A DNA stretch of 64,000 nt, taken from positions 128,001 to 192,000 of the forward strand of contig JAVZNE010000002.1 in NCBI GenBank assembly GCA_038882975.1. The letters are read 5' to 3'. The notes under the pieces are model-generated. The model did not search any database. It saw only the letters and a list, made by a program, of their open reading frames with translations, and was not told the DNA's origin. Below are positions 1 through 6,390 of the stretch, one piece after another. Made by a program: the position numbers and the translations under genes. Source of the stretch: Candidatus Bathyarchaeia archaeon. Lineage in GTDB: Archaea > Thermoproteota > Bathyarchaeia > Bathyarchaeales > Bathycorpusculaceae. Within the stretch, counting starts at the first letter, position 1; each line of letters opens with the position of its first letter.

Positions 1-629
1 ACGGTATAGGTGTATACCCAAATCAAGTTAAGGAACTTGCAATGAGGGACATTTATGGGCAATACAGGTTAGCCTCAAAGCTCATCGCACAAATCCCAGA
101 CTACATTGAAGTGATAATTATTCCGGGAAACCACGACGCCCCCCGAAAGGCTTTACCCCAACCGCCGATTTCCGACGCGTTTTTGGAAACTCTGCATAAT
201 TCACCTAATGTGCACTCCTTTGGAAATCCGTGTCGTCTAAGCCTCCACGGTGTTGAAGTTCTCATGTACCATGGGCGAAGCCTCGATGACATAATCTCCA
301 CAGTCCCGGGAATAAATTATACCCAGCCGGAAAAAGCAATGACTCTACTTTTGCAGTGTCGCCACTTGGCGCCAGTTTATGGTGGAAAAACGCCGCTTGC
401 GCCTGAGAGTAAAGACTGCCTTGTTATAGAACGTGTGCCTGACATTTTCCACGCCGGCCACATCCACACAGTCGGGCATGCAAACTATAGAGGTGTCACC
501 GTCGTTAACTCTGGTTGTTGGCAAGAGCAGACGGAGTACATGCGGAGGCAAGGGTTCACTCCAATGCCGGGCTTGGTTCCAGTGGTAAATCTCCAAACAC
601 TAGATGTTAGAATCCTTTCATTTGCCTAG
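1..629 (+). CDS. polB: DNA polymerase II (PolD) small subunit DP1, 5'-truncated by window edge
   Basis: Frame is open from base 3 (GIGVYPNQ). Contains the DP1 phosphoesterase motifs PGNHD, YHGRS, RHLAP.YG, HAGHIH and NSGCWQ.QT. Confidence 0.95.
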   Translation, partial: GIGVYPNQVKELAMRDIYGQYRLASKLIAQIPDYIEVIIIPGNHDAPRKALPQPPISDAFLETLHNSPNVHSFGNPCRLSLHGVEVLMYHGRSLDDIISTVPGINYTQPEKAMTLLLQCRHLAPVYGGKTPLAPESKDCLVIERVPDIFHAGHIHTVGHANYRGVTVVNSGCWQEQTEYMRRQGFTPMPGLVPVVNLQTLDVRILSFA

Positions 630-1183
630 GATAGACCACGAGCAATTAATCTAACAACACGGAGGGGTTCTGGCACCCGGCCACAAACAGTGGAACCCAC
701 TATAAGGCGGATGGCCCATTCAGGTTCCGCTCCAACAACTTCAAAATATAATGGAGGCTCTCCATCTAGCACTTTCACCTCATGGATAGGCCCTAATCTT
801 TCAAAAACTTTCCACCGTTCCCTCCAGTCTTTAAAATGTCGAATAAGTGCCCACTTTACCGCCTTATTATCGGGCTTCGTCCTTGCCACAACAATAACGG
901 GTTTCCGAAACTTTTCATAGAGAACTAAAGGATCTATAATGTTAAAACCGGCAAAGGACACCCCAGCAAGCATAACAGCCTCAAAGTCCCATTGCTTAAG
1001 GAGGCCCGTGACTTTTTCCGTCGCATTGAAGCCGTCAACGGCTATCCACTCGAAAGCCACATCCTCAATTTTAAAGCCCTTGAAAAGAGCGGCGGCTAAA
1101 AGAGCCTTTCTATTAACACCTTTTACAAAGCTTCCATCTTCAATTCCTACTACCCGCATCCTTTGAAAGGCATTTAGGCTCAT
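626..1183 (-). CDS. DUF99 family protein (endonuclease V-like fold)
   Basis: Motifs VVGIEDG, VDG.NAT, GVSFAGFNIID and GRVPEPLRV are typical of DUF99. Confidence 0.85.
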   Translation of the reverse strand: MSLNAFQRMRVVGIEDGSFVKGVNRKALLAAALFKGFKIEDVAFEWIAVDGFNATEKVTGLLKQWDFEAVMLAGVSFAGFNIIDPLVLYEKFRKPVIVVARTKPDNKAVKWALIRHFKDWRERWKVFERLGPIHEVKVLDGEPPLYFEVVGAEPEWAIRLIVGSTVCGRVPEPLRVVRLIARGLS

Positions 1184-2387
1184 AATCGATCAAGCGTCCG
1201 AGCCTACTGTCATTAGAGAAGGCTTCTTTAATAAGGGTGCGTGTCACCTCCATGCGGATTTTTTTCGTACGTCCATAACGCCCCATACTTACAACCTGTG
1301 CGTTCAATAGTCCCAAAGCGTCAAGCTCGTTGACCAAAGTGCTTACGCGTCTTTGCGTTAGAGGTGTCACAGCCAATTCGCTGCAGAGCTCATTGTATAC
1401 CTCATATATTTCGCCAGTTACTGCACGGTAACCATTCGCCCTAACAAGATGGTAGACGCTCAACATTACAAGCTTCGAGTGTAAGGTCAAATTCGCTAAG
1501 GCATCAACAACTCTATTATGTTCTATGAGCCTCTCAGCCTCGCGGACGTGCTCTTCGGTTATGGCGCTTGCGCCTTTACGTTCTGCAACTTCACCAGCAA
1601 CCCTAAGCAGATCTAAAGCCCTTCGAGCATCACCATGCTCAGCAGCGGCCAAGGCGGCACAGAGGCTTAGTGCGCCTTCACTAAGCGCCCCTTCATGGAA
1701 CGCCATCTGTGCCCGCTCAGCTAAAATATTACGCAGTTCAGACGCATTGTAGGGCCGAAAGACAATTTCTTCCTCACTTAGCGAGCTTAAAACTCGGGGG
1801 TCTAAGAACTCTTTTAGGCGTAGATCGTTGGAAATGCCGATTATAGAGACTTTACTGCGAGCTAATGTTTCGTTAATTCTTGTAAGCTCGTATAAGAGAA
1901 TGTCGCTTCGCGCCTTTATTATAGCGTCTACTTCATCGAGGCCTATAATAAGTATCCTTTTAGCCACATCCAAGCCTTGCTTAAACCTATCAAAAACCTC
2001 GCCTAAAGATAGTCCAGTAAATGGAACGGCAAGGCGAATGCTCTGGCATAAGTTCGCGAGAACGCGGTACTCTGTCCCAGCTAAACGACAATTTACATAA
2101 CAAAAACTGACGGCGGCCCCTATCTCCTTTGCTTTTGCGTCCAAGCGATTCAGAACATACTTTGTCACAGCCGTCTTACCAGTCCCTGTTTTCCCATAGA
2201 CAAAGATATTAGAACACCTTGCACCCTTCAAAACTGGCGCTATTGCCTCTCCAAGTCGTCGAATCTGCTCTTCACGATGAGGAAGTCTTTCAGGCAAGTA
2301 GTCATGACGGAGAACCTCCCGGTCTTTAAACACCCCCGCAGCATTACAGAACCTATCAAAGACATCATCAAGTATAGCATCTTTCAT
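1140..2387 (-). CDS. cdc6: Orc1/Cdc6 replication initiator
   Basis: LPHREEQI, Walker A GKTGTGKT, LDEVD, GDARRALDLLR and a C-terminal wHTH with GRYGRT. Start moved to ATG 2387, which follows an AAGGAG SD. Confidence 0.97.
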   Translation of the reverse strand: MKDAILDDVFDRFCNAAGVFKDREVLRHDYLPERLPHREEQIRRLGEAIAPVLKGARCSNIFVYGKTGTGKTAVTKYVLNRLDAKAKEIGAAVSFCYVNCRLAGTEYRVLANLCQSIRLAVPFTGLSLGEVFDRFKQGLDVAKRILIIGLDEVDAIIKARSDILLYELTRINETLARSKVSIIGISNDLRLKEFLDPRVLSSLSEEEIVFRPYNASELRNILAERAQMAFHEGALSEGALSLCAALAAAEHGDARRALDLLRVAGEVAERKGASAITEEHVREAERLIEHNRVVDALANLTLHSKLVMLSVYHLVRANGYRAVTGEIYEVYNELCSELAVTPLTQRRVSTLVNELDALGLLNAQVVSMGRYGRTKKIRMEVTRTLIKEAFSNDSRLGRLIDYEPKCLSKDAGSRN

Positions 2388-2531
2388 TAGCACTCCTTCC
2401 TCCTGTTTGTCACATAGTATTTGCCCTTTACTCCAAGAGTGGAAAAATAAGGCATACCATATAGAAAAGTGAACAAGCAACAGAAAAATTCTAAAAATTA
2501 ATGAACAGTCCGCATTAGAAAAAGAGAGACA

Positions 2532-2553
2532 CCCCCCGATTTCAACTGGAAAA
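2532..2553 (-). promoter_or_regulatory. ORB element 1
   Basis: Minus strand reads TTTCCAGTTGAAATCGGGGGG, matching the ORB core plus G-string. Confidence 0.9.
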
Positions 2554-2715
2554 CTCTTAAGCTTTTAGGTGTAGCTTGTTTCTTCTAAGGAAAAGAAAAT
2601 ACTCTGAAAGGTTAGAGCATCACCAAAAGTAAAAAGCTTCACATAGAAGTTTTTATACCAAAGCTTCAAATGATTAGCACACGACTTTTAACAAGATTTT
2701 AACTTTTTAATATTC

Positions 2716-2741
2716 CTCCAGCGGAAATAATGGGGTGGTGG
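2716..2741 (+). promoter_or_regulatory. ORB element 2
   Basis: CTCCAGCGGAAATAATGGGGTGGTG. Confidence 0.88.
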
Positions 2742-2845
2742 GCTACATCCCTTCTTACCATGGTGAACTAATAAAATACTTGAAATTTCAGTTTTGTAGT
2801 GTAACCGCCATAATGGAGTAAGTGACCCATAATTTTGTTCACGCT

Positions 2846-3139
2846 TTGTGAAAACCTTGTGAAGTTTATTTAGTTTTGGTATTTTTATTTTCTCCTTTTC
2901 CATAATTGTTGCTATTTTTATGTCTCTTTTCTGTGAAAACACCACCCCATCTTTTCTATTGGAAGCCGCAAGTATTGTTTGTTATTCTGTCCGTTTTCAC
3001 AAAGATCACTTTTGTGAAGTACGTTATTTAGAATCTTTGGAAATATAGCTTCTTATACTCTTTTCGGCTTTTAATTGCCTTTTTTATTTCCTTAGGTTCA
3101 CCGTAATAGCTATATCTTGTGAAGTGTAAAACTTGTGAA
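2846..3139. repeat. Cluster of TTGTGAA heptamer repeats in and beside oriC
   Basis: TTGTGAA at 2846, 2857, 3012, 3117 and 3133, reverse copy TTCACAA at 2996, near-copy CTGTGAA at 2931. Confidence 0.8.
2941..2964 (-). promoter_or_regulatory. ORB element 3, inverted relative to ORB2
   Basis: Minus strand reads TTCCAATAGAAAAGATGGGGTGGT and shares ATGGGGTGGT with ORB2. Confidence 0.85.
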
Positions 3140-3163
3140 AAGAATTTACAGGTGCCAGTAATA

Positions 3164-3598
3164 GTGCCAGCTAGGAAAATGCGAATCGAAGTATTCGACA
3201 ATGAGGGCAACAAATATAGCATAGCCTTTGAAGGGCAGATTACACGAGATAAAGCCCTTCGCCTTTTAGATTTGGTGGAGTTACTGGGTGGAGTTGCATC
3301 AAGCGGAACCAACTCGGGGGTCAGTGTTACGACTATTGAAAAGTCAAAATATGATAGGCTCTTGGCTGTCCTTCAGAAGCATTTTCCGATAGTTTGGTTT
3401 TCGTCAAAAGAGGTTCAAGCGGTCTACGAGCAAGAGTTTAAGGAGCCTATAAACCTAAGCACGGTGGCCACATACCTTTCCCGGATGGCTAACAAAGGGT
3501 TTCTTATCAAAGCCGGGGCCTCTAACCGTCTTAAATACAAAATAGCGCCCAGTCTGCCACAAGTTGTGGTAAAACATTACGCATCAAACGAGGGTTAG
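3164..3598 (+). CDS. Conserved hypothetical protein with C-terminal winged-helix domain, origin-adjacent
   Basis: GTG 3164 follows an AGGTG SD. C-terminus FSSKEV...INLSTVATYLSRMANKGFL..RLKY is wHTH-like. Confidence 0.8.
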   Translation: MPARKMRIEVFDNEGNKYSIAFEGQITRDKALRLLDLVELLGGVASSGTNSGVSVTTIEKSKYDRLLAVLQKHFPIVWFSSKEVQAVYEQEFKEPINLSTVATYLSRMANKGFLIKAGASNRLKYKIAPSLPQVVVKHYASNEG

Positions 3599-3606
3599 CT
3601 TGTTTC

Positions 3607-4320
3607 TTAAGCGGTCTCCGTCTCTGCTTTCTTCAAAAATTTTTCCATTTCCTTCTTCACGTTATACCTAAAGGGAATTTTACTAGAATCCCTTTCCAAA
3701 TAACCTTCCTCATAAAGCTTCTTCATAAGCCTGGCTGTGTGCTCTCTGCTAAGCCCAATTCTTTCCTTAATCTCCGGAGCTGTTTTAGGGCCCTCGGCAG
3801 CCAGCATCTCCAACACCGCTAACTCTGTTTCCGTTAACTTTGCTAACGCTTTTTCCCTTTTTATTGGTATGACAGTTTCAACTCTAAGCTCGGGTAAAGT
3901 TGGCACATTTTGAGTTCGCTCTTCAATAATTGAAACTTTGGCGAGGATCTCCTTATGAGACTCGACGATGTCACGCGTCTGCCTTTCTAAATCACTTAGC
4001 CGAGTTAACAGATGCTCCCTATCCTCCAAGATTCCCTTTGCTTTGCCTTCCAAAAGTTTTAGCCGATTCTCTAACTCTTTAACAGCCTTTAATGCATCGC
4101 TACCCTTAGCGGAAGCGGCCTCAACTTTGTAAGAAAATGCTTGCAAGCTTTCCGTTGCACGCTTAAGCTCCCTACTAAAACTTAAGATTATATCATTAAA
4201 AGCTTCCTTAGCCTTCCCATACTCTTTCCTAATTTTGACAAGATTCTTGTAATATCCGACCGCAGCACCAACAGCCACGGCTAAGAAAGCACATGAGACA
4301 AAGATTAAAAGGTCAATCAT
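3607..4320 (-). CDS. Membrane-anchored coiled-coil protein with C-terminal winged-helix (MarR/ArsR-like) domain
   Basis: N-terminal hydrophobic helix (LLIFVSCAFLAVAVGAAVGYY), heptad-rich middle, C-terminal LTETELAVLEML..EGPKTAPEIKERIGLSREHTARLMKKLYEEGYLER. Confidence 0.85.
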   Translation of the reverse strand: MIDLLIFVSCAFLAVAVGAAVGYYKNLVKIRKEYGKAKEAFNDIILSFSRELKRATESLQAFSYKVEAASAKGSDALKAVKELENRLKLLEGKAKGILEDREHLLTRLSDLERQTRDIVESHKEILAKVSIIEERTQNVPTLPELRVETVIPIKREKALAKLTETELAVLEMLAAEGPKTAPEIKERIGLSREHTARLMKKLYEEGYLERDSSKIPFRYNVKKEMEKFLKKAETETA

Positions 4321-4370
4321 GTGATATCCCCCGTGACTTCCTTAAAGTAACGTGTGACCTTATCATGTTG

Positions 4371-4587
4371 CATCACAAATCACACTTTTAACACTAAACC
4401 TTTTAAAGATTATGGTCCCTCATGGAACATATGACATCACAAATCACAGAAACTTCTATCCACACGAATACAAATATTGTTGCGAGAAAAGTACATTTTC
4501 CACTTCTTTTAGCTATTTAGCCTTATTCTATGCCTTATTTTTCTACCTGGAATGATCGTGGTTTTTGCTATGTGATTTGTGATGTCA
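4371..4587. repeat. Three copies of CATCACAAATCACA (two direct, one inverted)
   Basis: Copies at 4371-4384 and 4435-4448. TGACATCACAAATCACA (4432-4448) is a perfect 17-bp inverted repeat of 4571-4587. Confidence 0.9.
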
Positions 4588-5061
4588 CGTGAAGCCCTCC
4601 GACGGGTTTGAGAGCGCTTTTAAGCTATTTTCGAGTTCTTCTCTTAACATTTTAAGGAATTTTATTTGCTCCTCTGGTTGTTCAGGTTTATTCGGCAAGT
4701 CTTTGTGGGCTTCTATGTATTCTTGTAGTTTGTTTGCGATTTCAAGATACTGGTCAAGAGTTGTGCTTTCGAAGATTCCTAAATACCCTAAAAGCAGCAC
4801 GGTGTAGATCGCCTTTATAACGTTTTCCTGAGCCTGTTTTAAAGTTCTGTTAAAGGCGCCTCGGCTTATTTTTGCCTTTGTTAGTCGTAATCTGGCTTTT
4901 TCATCGTATTTTAATGGTTTTCCCAAAATATTTTCGGCTAAAACGTCTATTAGCAATGTTTCTAGCTGCGTTTTTGTTAAGTGGCTGTTTTTTGCCAGTA
5001 TTTTGACTATGGGGTCTTCTAAAGATTTTTTTAGCCATAATTGCACGCTGTTTTTTAACAT
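4585..5061 (-). CDS. Conserved hypothetical protein, possible HTH (sigma-4/Tfx-like pattern)
   Basis: LTKTQLETLL...ISRGAFNRTLKQAQENV pattern followed by a hydrophobic helix and a coiled coil. Confidence 0.7.
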   Translation of the reverse strand: MLKNSVQLWLKKSLEDPIVKILAKNSHLTKTQLETLLIDVLAENILGKPLKYDEKARLRLTKAKISRGAFNRTLKQAQENVIKAIYTVLLLGYLGIFESTTLDQYLEIANKLQEYIEAHKDLPNKPEQPEEQIKFLKMLREELENSLKALSNPSEGFT

Positions 5062-5208
5062 CTCCGCTTTTCTCCCATAAGGTTGTGCTTGTTGAATACA
5101 TTTTTGTATACGGCCCTTTTAAAAGAGTTTTGCCCAAACATTAAAAACCGTGCCTTCTAGTCGCAACCATTATATGCTCATCCGTGTAACGCGTAATGAG
5201 GAGCGCAT

Positions 5209-6390
5209 TTGAAGTTGCAATTTAAGGCAGCCGAACGCCTGAAATGCATAAAGCCCTCTGGAATTCGCCGATTTTTTGCTTTGGCCCAAGAAATTCCCGA
5301 TATAATTAATTTAAGTGTGGGGGAGCCGGATTTTACGCCGCCCATACACGCCCTAGAGGGAGGTTGGAAGGCCACATTAGCGGGTAAAATACACTACGCT
5401 CCAACAAATGGTATCCCAGAACTTAGAGAGGCTCTAGCTGAGAAGGCTCGTGTGGAATACGGCCTTCAATATGACCCAAAATCTGAGGTATTAGTAACTG
5501 TTGGCGGGACAGAGGCGATTTCCCTTGCCTTGATGGCGCTAGTTAATCCTGGTGATGAAGTGTTGATACCTAATCCTGGTTTTGTCTGTTATGAGCCTAG
5601 CGTTAGATTGGCGGGCGGCATTCCCGTTTCAATCCCCATTTTGGAGAAAAATGGGTTTAAGCCCTCTATTGATGATGTGACGTCACTTATCACGGAAAAA
5701 TCACGTGTGATGATTCTAAACTATCCAAACAATCCGACAGGGACGATTCTATCATACAATGAGCTTAAGGCGTTAGCCAAAATTGCTGTTGAACGTGATT
5801 TGATTGTGATTTCGGATGAAGTCTACGAGAAAATAATATACGATGGAGAAAAGCACCACTGCGTGGCGACTTTTCCGGAAATGCGGGAGCGCACATTAGT
5901 TGTAAACTCTTTTTCTAAAACCTATGCAATGACCGGTTTAAGGGTTGGTTATGTTTACGGTCCTAAGGAGCTTATCGCCCCTCTATGGCTCTGCCACCAG
6001 TATTTTGTTGCTTGTGTAGATACTTTTGCGCAGTATGCCGCGTTAGCCGCCTTAGAAGGGCCACAGGGCTTCGTTAAGGAGATGGTAGCTGAATTTAATA
6101 GGCGAAGACTTTTTGTTTTTAAGAGACTGAATGAGATTGGTGGATTTAGCTGTGTCCTTCCGAAAGGCGCTTTTTACATGTTCCCAAGCATAAAGGCCTT
6201 TAACATGTCTTCAGAGGATTTTGCCCAATTCCTACTTAAAGAGGCACGAGTTGCCACCGTTCCGGGTTCTGCTTTCGGTTCTTATGGTGAAGGGTACATT
6301 AGAATTTCCTATGCCGCAGCTTATGAACAGTTGGAAGAGGCTTTCAACAGCATAGAGAAAGCCGTTAAAAAAATCAAGGGCCATTTTTAG
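5209..6390 (+). CDS. PLP-dependent aminotransferase class I/II (aspartate/aromatic)
   Basis: GEPDF, NYPNNPTG, SDEVYE and SFSKTYAMTGLRVG. Confidence 0.95.
   Translation: MKLQFKAAERLKCIKPSGIRRFFALAQEIPDIINLSVGEPDFTPPIHALEGGWKATLAGKIHYAPTNGIPELREALAEKARVEYGLQYDPKSEVLVTVGGTEAISLALMALVNPGDEVLIPNPGFVCYEPSVRLAGGIPVSIPILEKNGFKPSIDDVTSLITEKSRVMILNYPNNPTGTILSYNELKALAKIAVERDLIVISDEVYEKIIYDGEKHHCVATFPEMRERTLVVNSFSKTYAMTGLRVGYVYGPKELIAPLWLCHQYFVACVDTFAQYAALAALEGPQGFVKEMVAEFNRRRLFVFKRLNEIGGFSCVLPKGAFYMFPSIKAFNMSSEDFAQFLLKEARVATVPGSAFGSYGEGYIRISYAAAYEQLEEAFNSIEKAVKKIKGHF

What the first reader, a model, noticed from the sequence alone, without database searches (positions are those of the whole stretch)
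3164..5061. Candidate undescribed origin-tethering or segregation module: three putative DNA-binding genes including a TM-coiled-coil-wHTH protein
Seen: directly beside oriC are (i) a small N-terminal domain + wHTH protein, (ii) a protein with one N-terminal TM helix, about 110 aa of coiled coil and a C-terminal wHTH, and (iii) an HTH-like helical protein, with arrays of related heptamers nearby. No ParA/SegA-type ATPase is in this cluster. Established analogy: bacterial RocS and RacA link origin-proximal DNA to the envelope through an HTH and a coiled coil. Inference: protein (ii) is a membrane tether for the origin or a centromere-like site, and (i) and (iii) are adaptors or regulators, which would be a ParAB/SegAB-independent archaeal system. 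This is the strongest candidate for a new system in the window.
Basis: partly seen in the sequence, partly recalled or inferred. Interest (0 to 1): 0.88.

Follow-up and report, generated by a model that had tools for sequence, protein, structure and literature searches.

The report
Origin-flanking trio of DNA-binding genes
Three small DNA-binding genes, one of them membrane-anchored, sit beside the replication origin of this archaeon and of many distant relatives, each next to its own one-of-a-kind cluster of short repeats, which makes them candidates for unknown helpers of origin control or origin attachment.

Summary
Beside cdc6 and an ORB-flanked AT-rich origin lie gene A (3164-3598, small beta-beta-alpha domain + wHTH), gene B (3607-4320, N-terminal signal-anchor helix, about 120 aa coiled coil, MarR/TrmB-type wHTH) and gene C (4585-5061, helical, sigma-70-region-4-like HTH core). 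The organism is a Bathyarchaeia archaeon.

New here: the order Cdc6-oriC-A-B-C recurs far outside its order, including ammonia-oxidising archaea. Where the cluster is broken, A-B, C-B or C-A pairs persist.

Two box types each form one dense cluster in the 1.42 Mb genome:
- TGTGAA, 7 copies, interleaved with the ORBs and the A promoter.
- TGTGAY, 8 copies, in front of B.

TGTGAA enrichment follows gene A across lineages; TGTGAY boxes follow B.

Best reading (inferred, not shown): A is an accessory origin-binding factor, functionally like Sulfolobus UBP/ucm. B, with C, is an autoregulated membrane-anchored regulator whose operator lies 1.3 kb from oriC.

Some lineages have B without the helix or the genes away from cdc6. 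The haloarchaeal oapABC precedent warns that origin adjacency need not mean origin function.

The parts
1140..2387 (-). cdc6/orc1 initiator gene
   Evidence: Pfam Cdc6_C 1.8e-28, Cdc6_lid 2.7e-27, AAA_22. The ATG at 2387 is read from the sequence. The gene is conserved beside A in relatives.
2388..3163 (.). cdc6-A intergenic region, the presumed oriC plus the divergent promoters
   Evidence: G+C falls to 34%. ORB-like elements and conserved blocks are seen in 7 of 7 genus members. No origin mapping exists; oriC is inferred.
2531..2553 (-). ORB-like element 1 (C-run plus TTTCAACTGGAAAA)
2714..2740 (+). ORB-like element 2 (TCCAGCGGAAA..ATGGGGT)
   Evidence: One arm of inverted repeat I3. Conserved in 7 of 7 genus members.
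2940..2966 (-). ORB-like element 3, inverted relative to element 2
   Evidence: The other arm of I3, 79% complementary over 24 nt. Conserved.
2846..3139 (.). TGTGAA box cluster. YTGTGAA at 2846, 2857, 2931, 3012, 3117 and 3133 (+) and at 2996-3002 (-)
   Evidence: It is the only cluster of 5 or more per 300 bp in the 1.42 Mb genome. The boxes are conserved in the genus. TGTGAA is the most enriched 6-mer in 31 Cdc6-A intergenic regions.
3164..3598 (+). gene A: beta-beta-alpha domain, linker and wHTH (144 aa)
   Evidence: Start from the conserved MPARK N-terminus. Model pLDDT 71.3. Foldseek top hits are generic wHTH regulators with E of 3.8e-3 or weaker. The profile is found in 198 of 301 genomes of the phylum sample.
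3607..4320 (-). gene B: N-terminal anchor helix (nt 4255-4311), coiled coil, MarR/TrmB-type wHTH (nt about 3646-3849), 237 aa
   Evidence: Public records name it 'MarR family transcriptional regulator'.
4320..4587 (.). TGTGAY box cluster in the B-C intergenic region. Three 17-mers TGACATCACAAATCACA at 4368-4384 (+), 4432-4448 (+) and 4571-4587 (-), plus single half-sites
   Evidence: TCACAnnTCACA occurs only 3 times in the whole genome, all here. It is the only cluster of 5 or more TGTGAY per 300 bp in the genome. The boxes are conserved in the genus and across the order.
4585..5061 (-). gene C: helical protein with a sigma-70-region-4/LuxR-like HTH core and a C-terminal helical hairpin (158 aa)
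   Evidence: 3231 relatives were found; all but one of the names that sources give among the 120 listed are 'hypothetical protein', and none carries a Pfam domain. The profile is found in 142 of 301 genomes.

Best explanation
The three ORFs are real genes for small DNA-binding proteins. They form an old origin-associated gene cluster of Thermoproteota, and each comes with its own cis-element.

Shown:
- The domain make-up of A, B and C.
- The conserved order Cdc6-oriC-A-B-C.
- Two box types that each form a single dense cluster in the genome. TGTGAA boxes are interleaved with the ORB elements and the A promoter. TGTGAY boxes, three of them tandem 12-mers, lie in front of B.
- Across lineages, TGTGAA (TGTTAA in ammonia oxidisers) tracks gene A and TGTGAY tracks B.

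Inferred mechanism:
1. A binds the TGTGAA boxes inside and beside oriC through its wHTH. It acts as an accessory origin factor and represses its own promoter, since two boxes sit just downstream of a TATA-like element. In role, not in fold, this resembles the ucm-binding protein UBP of Sulfolobales.
2. B dimerises through its coiled coil and binds the TGTGAY boxes that flank its own TATA box, so it autoregulates.
3. B is held in the membrane by an N-out/C-in anchor with almost no outside part. The DNA it binds, 1.3 kb from oriC, would therefore be held at the membrane. Whether that is the selected function or a side effect is open.
4. C is co-transcribed with B in other lineages and acts with B as a second HTH subunit or co-regulator.
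For: Domains.

Synteny:
- B was found in 32 of 41 relatives.
- The same gene order holds in all 20 order-level loci fetched.
- cdc6 lies divergent within 1.5 kb of A in 73 of 73 Bathyarchaeia loci with enough flank, and B is the next gene in 52 of 65.
- Outside the order, 33 genomes that I picked from the hit lists were examined. cdc6 adjoins A, B or C in 16, and the full Cdc6-A-B-C order is kept in 8, including 3 AmoA-positive genomes. A-B pairs without cdc6 occur in 6, C-A pairs in 3, and C-B pairs without cdc6 in 4, as operons in 3 of them.

Boxes within the genome:
- TCACAnnTCACA occurs 3 times in 1.42 Mb, all between B and C.
- There is one cluster of 5 or more TGTGAA per 300 bp (7 copies, 2847-3134) and one of TGTGAY (8 copies, 4320-4578).

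Boxes across lineages:
- TGTGAA occurs 146 times in 22,384 bp of 31 Cdc6-A intergenic regions (6.5 per kb), against 0.69 per kb in all locus DNA and 17.7 +/- 4.2 in Markov resamples. It is the top-ranked 6-mer, ahead of ORB-derived words.
- Upstream of cdc6 in genomes where A was not found, there are 0 in 2 x 700 bp and 2 in 3,588 bp across 5 loci.
- A family with A but without B or C still has 5-7 boxes (L057-L059).
- Ammonia oxidisers carry TGTTAA instead: 8, 10 and 4 copies against 0.69, 0.40 and 0.12 expected.
- TGTGAY stands at 15.2 per kb in the 250 bp upstream of B in 36 loci, against 0.99 per kb. This includes a Bathyarchaeia family without A and the ammonia oxidisers.
- Of 55 TGTGAnnTGTGA matches in 1.02 Mb, 38 lie between B and C, in 18 of 20 order-level loci.

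Precedent: in Sulfolobus an extra origin motif between ORB2 and ORB3 is essential and is bound by the small protein UBP. The authors ask whether other lineages have analogues (PMC12141716; introduction, results parts 1-2 and passages read).
Against: - No binding, expression or localisation data exist. Every protein-to-box assignment rests on co-occurrence among related genomes, which are not independent.
- Only 7 A-lacking loci were examined.
- Where A lies away from cdc6, its upstream 320 nt carries only 0-3 TGTGAA. Autoregulation by A therefore rests on one conserved box next to the TATA element.
- The TGTGAA boxes could belong to Cdc6 recognition. In ammonia oxidisers GTTAA/GTGAA abuts the ORB dyad.
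- The A and C models are of middling confidence (pLDDT 71.3 and 69.6) and neither has a significant structural match.
- In several families the genes are not at cdc6.
- 9 of 22 B relatives outside the order lack the anchor helix.
- Unrelated genes (GGGPS, Elf1) share the conserved block, so synteny alone is weak evidence.
- The haloarchaeal origin-associated cluster oapABC proved to drive vesicle formation, not replication (PMC7002104 and PMC10927574, passages read).
Confidence: 0.5

Rival explanations
1. B is a dedicated membrane tether for the origin or for a centromere-like site. A and C are adaptors. Together they form a ParAB/SegAB-independent segregation system.
For: - B has a signal-anchor helix with the DNA-binding end in the cytoplasm, conserved in 21 of 21 order-level orthologues and 13 of 22 more distant ones, including ammonia oxidisers.
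- The only dense TGTGAY cluster in the genome lies 1.3 kb from oriC.
- The cluster is conserved next to cdc6.
- There is almost no extracellular part, so the helix is an anchor rather than a sensor.
Against: - The boxes lie in B's own promoter and flank a conserved TATA-like element, as for ordinary autorepression.
- In some families C-B lies far from cdc6 (L043-L045, L052).
- B relatives in five families lack the helix.
- ParA/MinD-like ATPases exist elsewhere in the genome, so independence from them cannot be claimed.
- No motor or partner at the envelope is identified.
Confidence: 0.15
2. A, B and C are ordinary local transcription factors with no role in replication or segregation. Their place beside oriC is inherited synteny of an origin-proximal block, as with haloarchaeal oapABC.
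For: - All three are HTH proteins.
- B is named a MarR family regulator in public records.
- The boxes sit in promoters.
- Unrelated genes (PolD small subunit, Endo_dU, GGGPS, Elf1) share the conserved block.
- oapABC is highly conserved at the haloarchaeal origin, yet OapA is a vesicle GTPase.
- Gene order around haloarchaeal oriC1 is generally syntenic (PMC4010727, passages read).
Against: - TGTGAA boxes lie between and beside the ORB elements, not only at the A promoter.
- TGTGAA is more enriched than ORB-derived words.
- Each box type has one cluster in the genome, so no wider regulon is visible.
- Pairwise linkage A-B, C-B and C-A survives where the block is broken.
Confidence: 0.3
3. The TGTGAA/TGTTAA boxes are an extension of ORB recognition by Cdc6 itself, of mini-ORB type. 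A would then be only a neighbouring regulator.
For: - In ammonia-oxidiser loci GCGTTAA/GCGTGAA directly abuts the ORB dyad.
- In the window and in L057 a TGTGAA sits 6 nt from the G-run of the inverted ORB.
Against: - The boxes also occur in pairs away from any ORB, at 2846-2863 and 3117-3139.
- They are at background level upstream of the best Cdc6 orthologue in 7 loci of genomes where A was not found, 3 of which still have ORB-like GTGGAAA/CTGGAAA words.
Confidence: 0.15

Closest known systems
UBP and the ucm motif of Sulfolobales and Desulfurococcales origins (PMC12141716)
   Same: A second conserved short motif lies inside or beside the ORB-flanked unwinding region. A small, basic, sequence-specific DNA-binding protein is the candidate reader. 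The lineages in which A was not found include families whose origins lack TGTGAA boxes.
   Different: UBP is a 111-aa beta-rich saddle with a strand-swap dimer, whereas A is modelled as a wHTH with a beta-beta-alpha domain. UBP has over 300 genomic sites; TGTGAA forms a single cluster here. The paper's text as read does not place the ubp gene beside the origin, whereas gene A is nearly always there in Bathyarchaeia. Binding of A to DNA, or to MCM, is untested.
Haloarchaeal oapABC, the origin-associated three-gene cluster (PMC7002104, PMC10927574)
   Same: A highly conserved three-gene cluster transcribed divergently from the origin-associated orc/cdc6 gene.
   Different: OapA is a small GTPase, OapB carries DUF2073 and OapC carries DUF2072. 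None of these families matches A, B or C. Here all three are HTH proteins with matching box clusters.
Bacterial origin-to-envelope tethers RacA, RocS and Noc (recalled), and RicO of S. aureus (preprint 10.64898/2026.03.06.710092, search listing only)
   Same: B combines a DNA-binding HTH, a coiled coil and a membrane attachment element. Its candidate sites lie close to the origin.
   Different: No sequence relation was found. B uses a true N-terminal transmembrane anchor rather than an amphipathic helix or a partner protein. Its sites form one promoter-located cluster, not tens of sites spread over the origin region.
MarR/TrmB/Lrs14-type archaeal wHTH regulators
   Same: The wHTH of B passes the Pfam MarR and TrmB cut-offs and gives sub-threshold NCBIfam matches to Lrs14 and Csa3.
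   Different: Only the 50-60-residue wHTH core matches. The membrane anchor and the long coiled coil are not part of those families.
SegAB of Sulfolobus (recalled; PMC5120986 and PMC11381335 seen in search listings only)
   Same: A site-specific DNA-binding protein whose sites lie just upstream of its own operon. The pair is conserved in archaea.
   Different: There is no ParA-like SegA partner in the cluster and no sequence similarity was detected.

Membership tests
MarR/TrmB-type winged helix regulators (gene B) | wHTH domain scoring above the curated Pfam cut-off | tested here: met
   MarR 33.9 bits against 24.6; TrmB 30.6 against 25.6; residues 162-221.
MarR/TrmB-type winged helix regulators (gene B) | Soluble dimer whose dimer interface is built from helices flanking the wHTH | tested here: not met
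   Only the wHTH core aligns (profile positions 1-52 of 59). The remainder is a membrane helix plus a coiled coil.
Origin-membrane tethers of RacA/RocS/Noc type (gene B) | Sequence or domain homology to those proteins | tested here: not met
   No such family appears among the Pfam, NCBIfam or PDB-sequence matches.
Origin-membrane tethers of RacA/RocS/Noc type (gene B) | A membrane attachment element joined to a cytoplasmic DNA-binding domain | tested here: met
   N-terminal hydrophobic helix with acidic or neutral N-terminus and a basic C-flank in 21 of 21 order-level orthologues. Judged by hydropathy and charge only.
Origin-membrane tethers of RacA/RocS/Noc type (gene B) | Binding sites concentrated near the origin | tested here: inconclusive
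   The only dense TGTGAY cluster is 1.3 kb from oriC. It is a single promoter-located cluster, and binding by B is not shown.
Origin-membrane tethers of RacA/RocS/Noc type (gene B) | Origin held at the envelope and a segregation defect on loss | not testable with these tools
   Needs cell biology in a cultured relative.
UBP/ucm origin accessory system (gene A with TGTGAA boxes) | A conserved non-ORB motif within the ORB-flanked origin core | tested here: met
   A box pair at 2846-2863 and a box at 2931-2937 lie between ORB-like elements 2 and 3. TGTGAA is the top-enriched 6-mer in 31 loci.
UBP/ucm origin accessory system (gene A with TGTGAA boxes) | The UBP fold (beta-rich saddle, strand-swap dimer) | tested here: not met
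   The A model is beta-beta-alpha plus wHTH. Foldseek top hits are wHTH regulators.
UBP/ucm origin accessory system (gene A with TGTGAA boxes) | Sequence-specific binding to the motif and interaction with MCM | not tested
WhiP/Cdt1-like initiators (gene A) | Tandem winged-helix domains homologous to Cdt1 (feature recalled) | tested here: inconclusive
   The model shows a single wHTH. There is no Pfam or NCBIfam match above cut-off; sub-threshold matches are Penicillinase_R at 18.7 bits and MCM_C at 15.3 bits. No WhiP sequence was compared directly.
Haloarchaeal OapABC | Small GTPase plus DUF2073 plus DUF2072 proteins | tested here: not met
   None of these families appears among the matches of A, B or C.
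Sigma-70 region 4 / LuxR-type HTH (gene C) | Match to Sigma70_r4, GerE or related Pfam models | tested here: inconclusive
   The window's protein has no match at E up to 1. Of 24 diverse homologues, 2 match Sigma70_r4 (best 4e-5), 2 match HTH_10, 1 matches GerE and 1 matches Sigma70_r4_2. A neighbouring Atlas cluster has Sigma70_r4 on 14% of members, at score 0.80, which is a lead only.
ToxR/CadC-type membrane-bound regulators (gene B) | N-terminal cytoplasmic wHTH, transmembrane helix, extracytoplasmic sensor domain (feature recalled) | tested here: not met
   The order is reversed and at most a few residues lie outside the membrane.
ParB/SegB centromere-binding proteins | A ParB-type or SegB-type domain with an adjacent ParA/SegA ATPase | tested here: not met
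   No such domain was found in A, B or C. The AAA_31 matches lie on other contigs.

The most novel reading that the evidence does not exclude
A, B and C together are an ancestral origin-organising system of Bathyarchaeia, ammonia-oxidising archaea and allied Thermoproteota. A marks oriC through TGTGAA/TGTTAA boxes set among the ORBs and modulates firing by Cdc6 and MCM. The membrane-anchored coiled-coil protein B, with its HTH partner C, clamps a unique TGTGAY site cluster about 1 kb away to the cytoplasmic membrane. Newly replicated origins are thus attached to the envelope and separated without a ParA-type motor.
Probability: 0.12. Interest if true: 0.9.

Novelty: new variant of a known kind. 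Interest (0 to 1): 0.62.

Why it matters
Beyond Orc1/Cdc6 and the recently described UBP of Sulfolobales, few factors are known to act at archaeal origins. That paper asks outright whether other lineages have analogous proteins (PMC12141716). How archaea without SegAB or ParAB position and separate chromosomes is also open.

This cluster offers concrete, testable candidates:
- a single-copy wHTH gene kept beside oriC from Bathyarchaeia to ammonia oxidisers, with a matching origin motif;
- a membrane-anchored coiled-coil wHTH protein with a unique site cluster next to the origin.

The same genes occur in AmoA-positive genomes, so the ideas can be tested in cultured ammonia oxidisers rather than in uncultured Bathyarchaeia.

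If the genes prove to be plain regulators, the result still annotates two families that have no Pfam model (A and C) and gives them likely operators.

Tried and rejected
- Complex prediction of B (residues 25-237) with C gave no verdict (score 0.00, controls not run). It is evidence neither for nor against binding.
- Public runs: no RNA holder is listed for 2300-5300. Nothing can be said on expression, and read laying was not used.
- Structure searches. Foldseek against the PDB gave no match at E of 0.001 or better for C or A. VIA-align wide for C returned only generic helical-hairpin matches to residues 97-158 (Z up to 8.7, within the range the tool calls common).
- Profile searches of PDB sequences gave nothing for C (best E 0.25), only a BlaI/CopR-like wHTH at E 0.068 for A, and only coiled-coil proteins for B.
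- PHROGs: no match for A or C and weak wHTH matches for B.
- An hhalign comparison of A with B gave probability 1.8%, so they are not detectable paralogues.
- Rfam and tRNA scans of 2300-5300 found nothing.
- Cumulative GC skew of the contig has no clear extreme at the locus.
- Search for fused forms of A. The 150 best of 484 representatives are 87-223 aa with one matched stretch in all but two, so there is no informative fusion.
- Neighbours of the C-B operon where it lies away from cdc6 are unrelated metabolic genes.
- I considered B as an ESCRT-III/CdvB-like or CdvA-like protein and dropped the idea: no Snf7 or PRC-barrel match appeared.
- The HerA-like gene of relatives was not found in this genome with that one query. 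The genome is 94.7% complete, so absence is not shown.
- Print search. Searches turned up no paper on this cluster, or on a membrane-anchored coiled-coil wHTH protein at an archaeal origin. The library lacks most subscription journals, and Pelve et al. 2013 on the Nitrosopumilus origin was seen only as cited in PMC4010727. Supplementary files were not consulted; those of PMC12141716 (UBP distribution) could bear on the comparison.


Full report
What is there.

The left end of the window reads as follows:
- PolD small subunit, 3-629, + strand.
- Endo_dU, 626-1183, - strand.
- cdc6/orc1, 1140-2387, - strand.
- A 776-bp intergenic stretch whose G+C falls to 34%.
- Gene A, 3164-3598, + strand.
- Gene B, 3607-4320, - strand.
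- A 264-bp spacer.
- Gene C, 4585-5061, - strand.
- An aminotransferase gene.

Names attached to relatives place the organism in Bathyarchaeia. The genome held for it has 1.42 Mb in 15 contigs and is 94.7% complete.

The three proteins.

- A starts at the GTG at 3164. This gives MPARKMRIEVF, the N-terminus shared by relatives, many of which have ATG there. Its AlphaFold model (31-row alignment, pLDDT 71.3) has two strands and a helix (residues 4-41), a disordered linker and a winged helix (56-127). The best Foldseek matches are generic wHTH regulators (ArsR, Fur, PadR, MecI, RosR) at E of 3.8e-3 or weaker. No Pfam or NCBIfam model passes its cut-off.
- B has a hydrophobic helix at residues 4-22. 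A conserved juxtamembrane block follows, then a variable coiled coil that matches tropomyosin and chemoreceptor coiled coils. The C-terminal wHTH is highly conserved and passes the MarR and TrmB cut-offs. The N-terminus is neutral or acidic and the flank after the helix is basic. The helix therefore reads as an N-out/C-in signal anchor with virtually no outside part, not a cleavable signal peptide. This holds in 21 of 21 order-level orthologues (simple hydropathy and charge, no dedicated predictor).
- C is all-helical in its model (pLDDT 69.6). It has 3231 relatives; all but one of the names that sources give among the 120 listed are 'hypothetical protein', and none carries a Pfam domain. Its conserved core, LTKTQLETLL...SRGAFNRTLKQA..N, resembles a sigma-70 region 4/LuxR-type HTH. 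Of 24 diverse homologues, 2 match Sigma70_r4 (best 4e-5), and single members match HTH_10, GerE and Sigma70_r4_2. An Atlas neighbour cluster points the same way, at lead level only. Residues 97-158 form a helical hairpin with only generic matches.

The origin.

The intergenic region carries three ORB-like elements, each a dyad of type TCCAGYGGAAA followed by a G-run. Two are inverted around an AT-rich stretch (2717-2740 and 2940-2963). They are invariant or nearly so in 7 of 7 genus members, amid variable sequence. The same kind of element lies between cdc6 and A in other classes. This matches the general description of archaeal origins (PMC5333045 and PMC4010727, passages read). GC skew is uninformative. 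oriC is therefore inferred, not mapped.

Synteny.

- B was found in 32 of 41 relatives, and in 24 of 27 good-quality genomes.
- All 20 order-level loci I fetched keep PolD-Cdc6-A-B-C.
- Among the 80 best Bathyarchaeia loci from the species collection, cdc6 lies divergent within 1.5 kb of A in 73 of the 73 with enough flank. The next gene after A is B in 52 of 65, and a NurA-like/HerA-like pair in 13 of 65.
- Across a 301-genome sample of the phylum, profiles find A in 198, C in 142 and B-like proteins in 179. For B the weaker hits may be other wHTH proteins.
- I picked 33 genomes outside the order from those lists; this is not a random sample. cdc6 adjoins at least one of the three genes in 16, with one more at 3.3 kb. 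The full order Cdc6-A-B-C is kept in 8. Three of those 8 carry archaeal AmoA, so they are ammonia oxidisers.
- Where the block is broken, pairs persist. A-B occurs without cdc6 in 6 genomes, C-A in 3, Cdc6-A alone in 4, and C-B without cdc6 in 4 genomes, as a tight or overlapping operon in 3 of them.
- Unrelated genes (GGGPS, Elf1) also stay nearby, so synteny alone is not proof of a shared function.

The cis-elements.

This is the strongest new evidence.

1. In the whole genome TCACAnnTCACA occurs three times, all between B and C.
2. The only window of 300 bp with five or more TGTGAY is 4320-4578, with 8 copies. The only one with five or more TGTGAA is 2847-3134, with 7 copies.
3. The B-type boxes are phylogenetic footprints in the genus and flank a conserved TTTAAAG element.
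4. Across the order, 38 of 55 TGTGAnnTGTGA matches in 1.02 Mb of fetched DNA lie between B and C, in 18 of 20 loci.
5. TGTGAY stands at 15.2 per kb in the 250 bp upstream of B in 36 loci, against 0.99 per kb overall. This includes a Bathyarchaeia family that lacks A and the ammonia oxidisers.
6. The A-type boxes are conserved in the genus. There is a pair inside the ORB-flanked core, one box 6 nt from the G-run of the inverted ORB, and a pair just downstream of a TATA-like element in front of A.
7. Over 31 Cdc6-A intergenic regions, TGTGAA is the most enriched 6-mer: 146 observed, 6.5 per kb against 0.69 per kb overall, and 17.7 +/- 4.2 in resamples. It outranks the ORB-derived words.
8. A family that has A but neither B nor C keeps 5-7 boxes (L057-L059).
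9. Seven loci from genomes where A was not found have 2 boxes in about 5 kb upstream of cdc6.
10. Ammonia oxidisers have few TGTGAA but carry 4-10 TGTTAA(C) boxes, one base different, where about 0.1-0.7 are expected.

By co-occurrence, TGTGAA/TGTTAA goes with A and TGTGAY goes with B (and C). These genomes are related, so the counts overstate independence.

How it most likely works.

A is best read as an accessory origin-binding protein that also represses its own promoter. B is best read as a coiled-coil dimer that binds the boxes around its own TATA element. Because B is anchored in the membrane, it would hold that DNA, 1.3 kb from oriC, at the membrane. C would be a partner HTH protein.

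The closest functional precedent for A is UBP. This small protein binds the essential ucm motif between ORB2 and ORB3 of Sulfolobus origins and touches MCM. Its authors note that ubp is confined to Sulfolobales and Desulfurococcales, and they ask whether other lineages have analogues (PMC12141716). A has a different fold, so it would be an analogue and not a relative.

Against a replication role stands the haloarchaeal oapABC cluster. It is equally conserved at the origin, yet it functions in vesicle formation.

It survives its own three tests but gains no direct support:
- The B boxes look like an operator.
- B relatives in five families lack the helix.
- In some families C-B is nowhere near cdc6.
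- ParA/MinD-like ATPases exist elsewhere in the genome.

I put this model at about 0.15. The plain-regulator reading gets 0.3. The mixed reading given as best gets 0.5.

Novelty.

A and C have no curated family. B is annotated only as a MarR-type regulator. My six literature searches found no description of this cluster, of the TGTGAA origin boxes, or of a membrane-anchored coiled-coil wHTH protein at an archaeal origin. The library is incomplete and supplements were closed. It is a new variant of known kinds (origin accessory factor; autoregulated HTH pair) rather than a new kind of system.

Limits.

- The complex job gave no verdict.
- No RNA data were listed.
- All functional statements are inferences from sequence comparison.

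Noticed in passing
L013:5554-8137 (relative G021); the same place in 13 of 65 Bathyarchaeia loci: In many relatives two genes on A's strand lie between A and B. One is a 351-aa protein with marginal NurA matches (E 0.12-0.13). The other is a 519-aa HerA/FtsK-like ATPase (Pfam DUF87 3.4e-11; NCBIfam CedD and HerA far below cut-off). The pair is missing at this place in the window, and the ATPase was not found in this genome with that one query.
   Followed up: partly
window 2439-2461 and 4524-4546: A 23-nt inverted repeat, 87% complementary, links the conserved leader just upstream of cdc6 with the B-C spacer (I1). The cdc6-side copy is conserved in the genus; the other copy only weakly. It may be chance.
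   Followed up: partly
window 2590-2612 and 2636-2658: Two blocks in the cdc6-A intergenic region, AAGAAAATACTCTGAAAGGTTAG and TTC.C.TAGAAGTTTTTATACC, are nearly invariant in 7 of 7 genus members. They are neither ORB-like nor TGTGAA boxes. Their function is unknown; one may be the cdc6 promoter.
   Followed up: no
window 626-1183 and 1140-2387: The Endo_dU gene (Pfam 8.3e-47) overlaps the 3' end of cdc6 by 44 bp. The PolD-small/Endo_dU/Cdc6 arrangement recurs in several other families.
   Followed up: no
L043-L045 (C-B operons of two other families): Where B is short (130-155 aa: anchor helix plus wHTH with almost no coiled coil), C is also short (129-136 aa) and lacks part of its C-terminal helical region. 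This hints that the tail of C and the coiled coil of B go together. The complex prediction gave no verdict.
   Followed up: partly
L047-L049 (AmoA-positive genomes), cdc6-A intergenic: In ammonia-oxidiser loci the ORB-like elements are directly followed by GCGTTAA or GCGTGAA, and further TGTTAAC boxes fill the region towards gene A.
   Followed up: partly
L039:11320 and L041:11228: In two families where B and C are divergent rather than tandem, a TGTGATnTGTGA box still sits at the 3' end of C. The box at C's stop codon in the window may therefore belong to C's end rather than to B's promoter.
   Followed up: no
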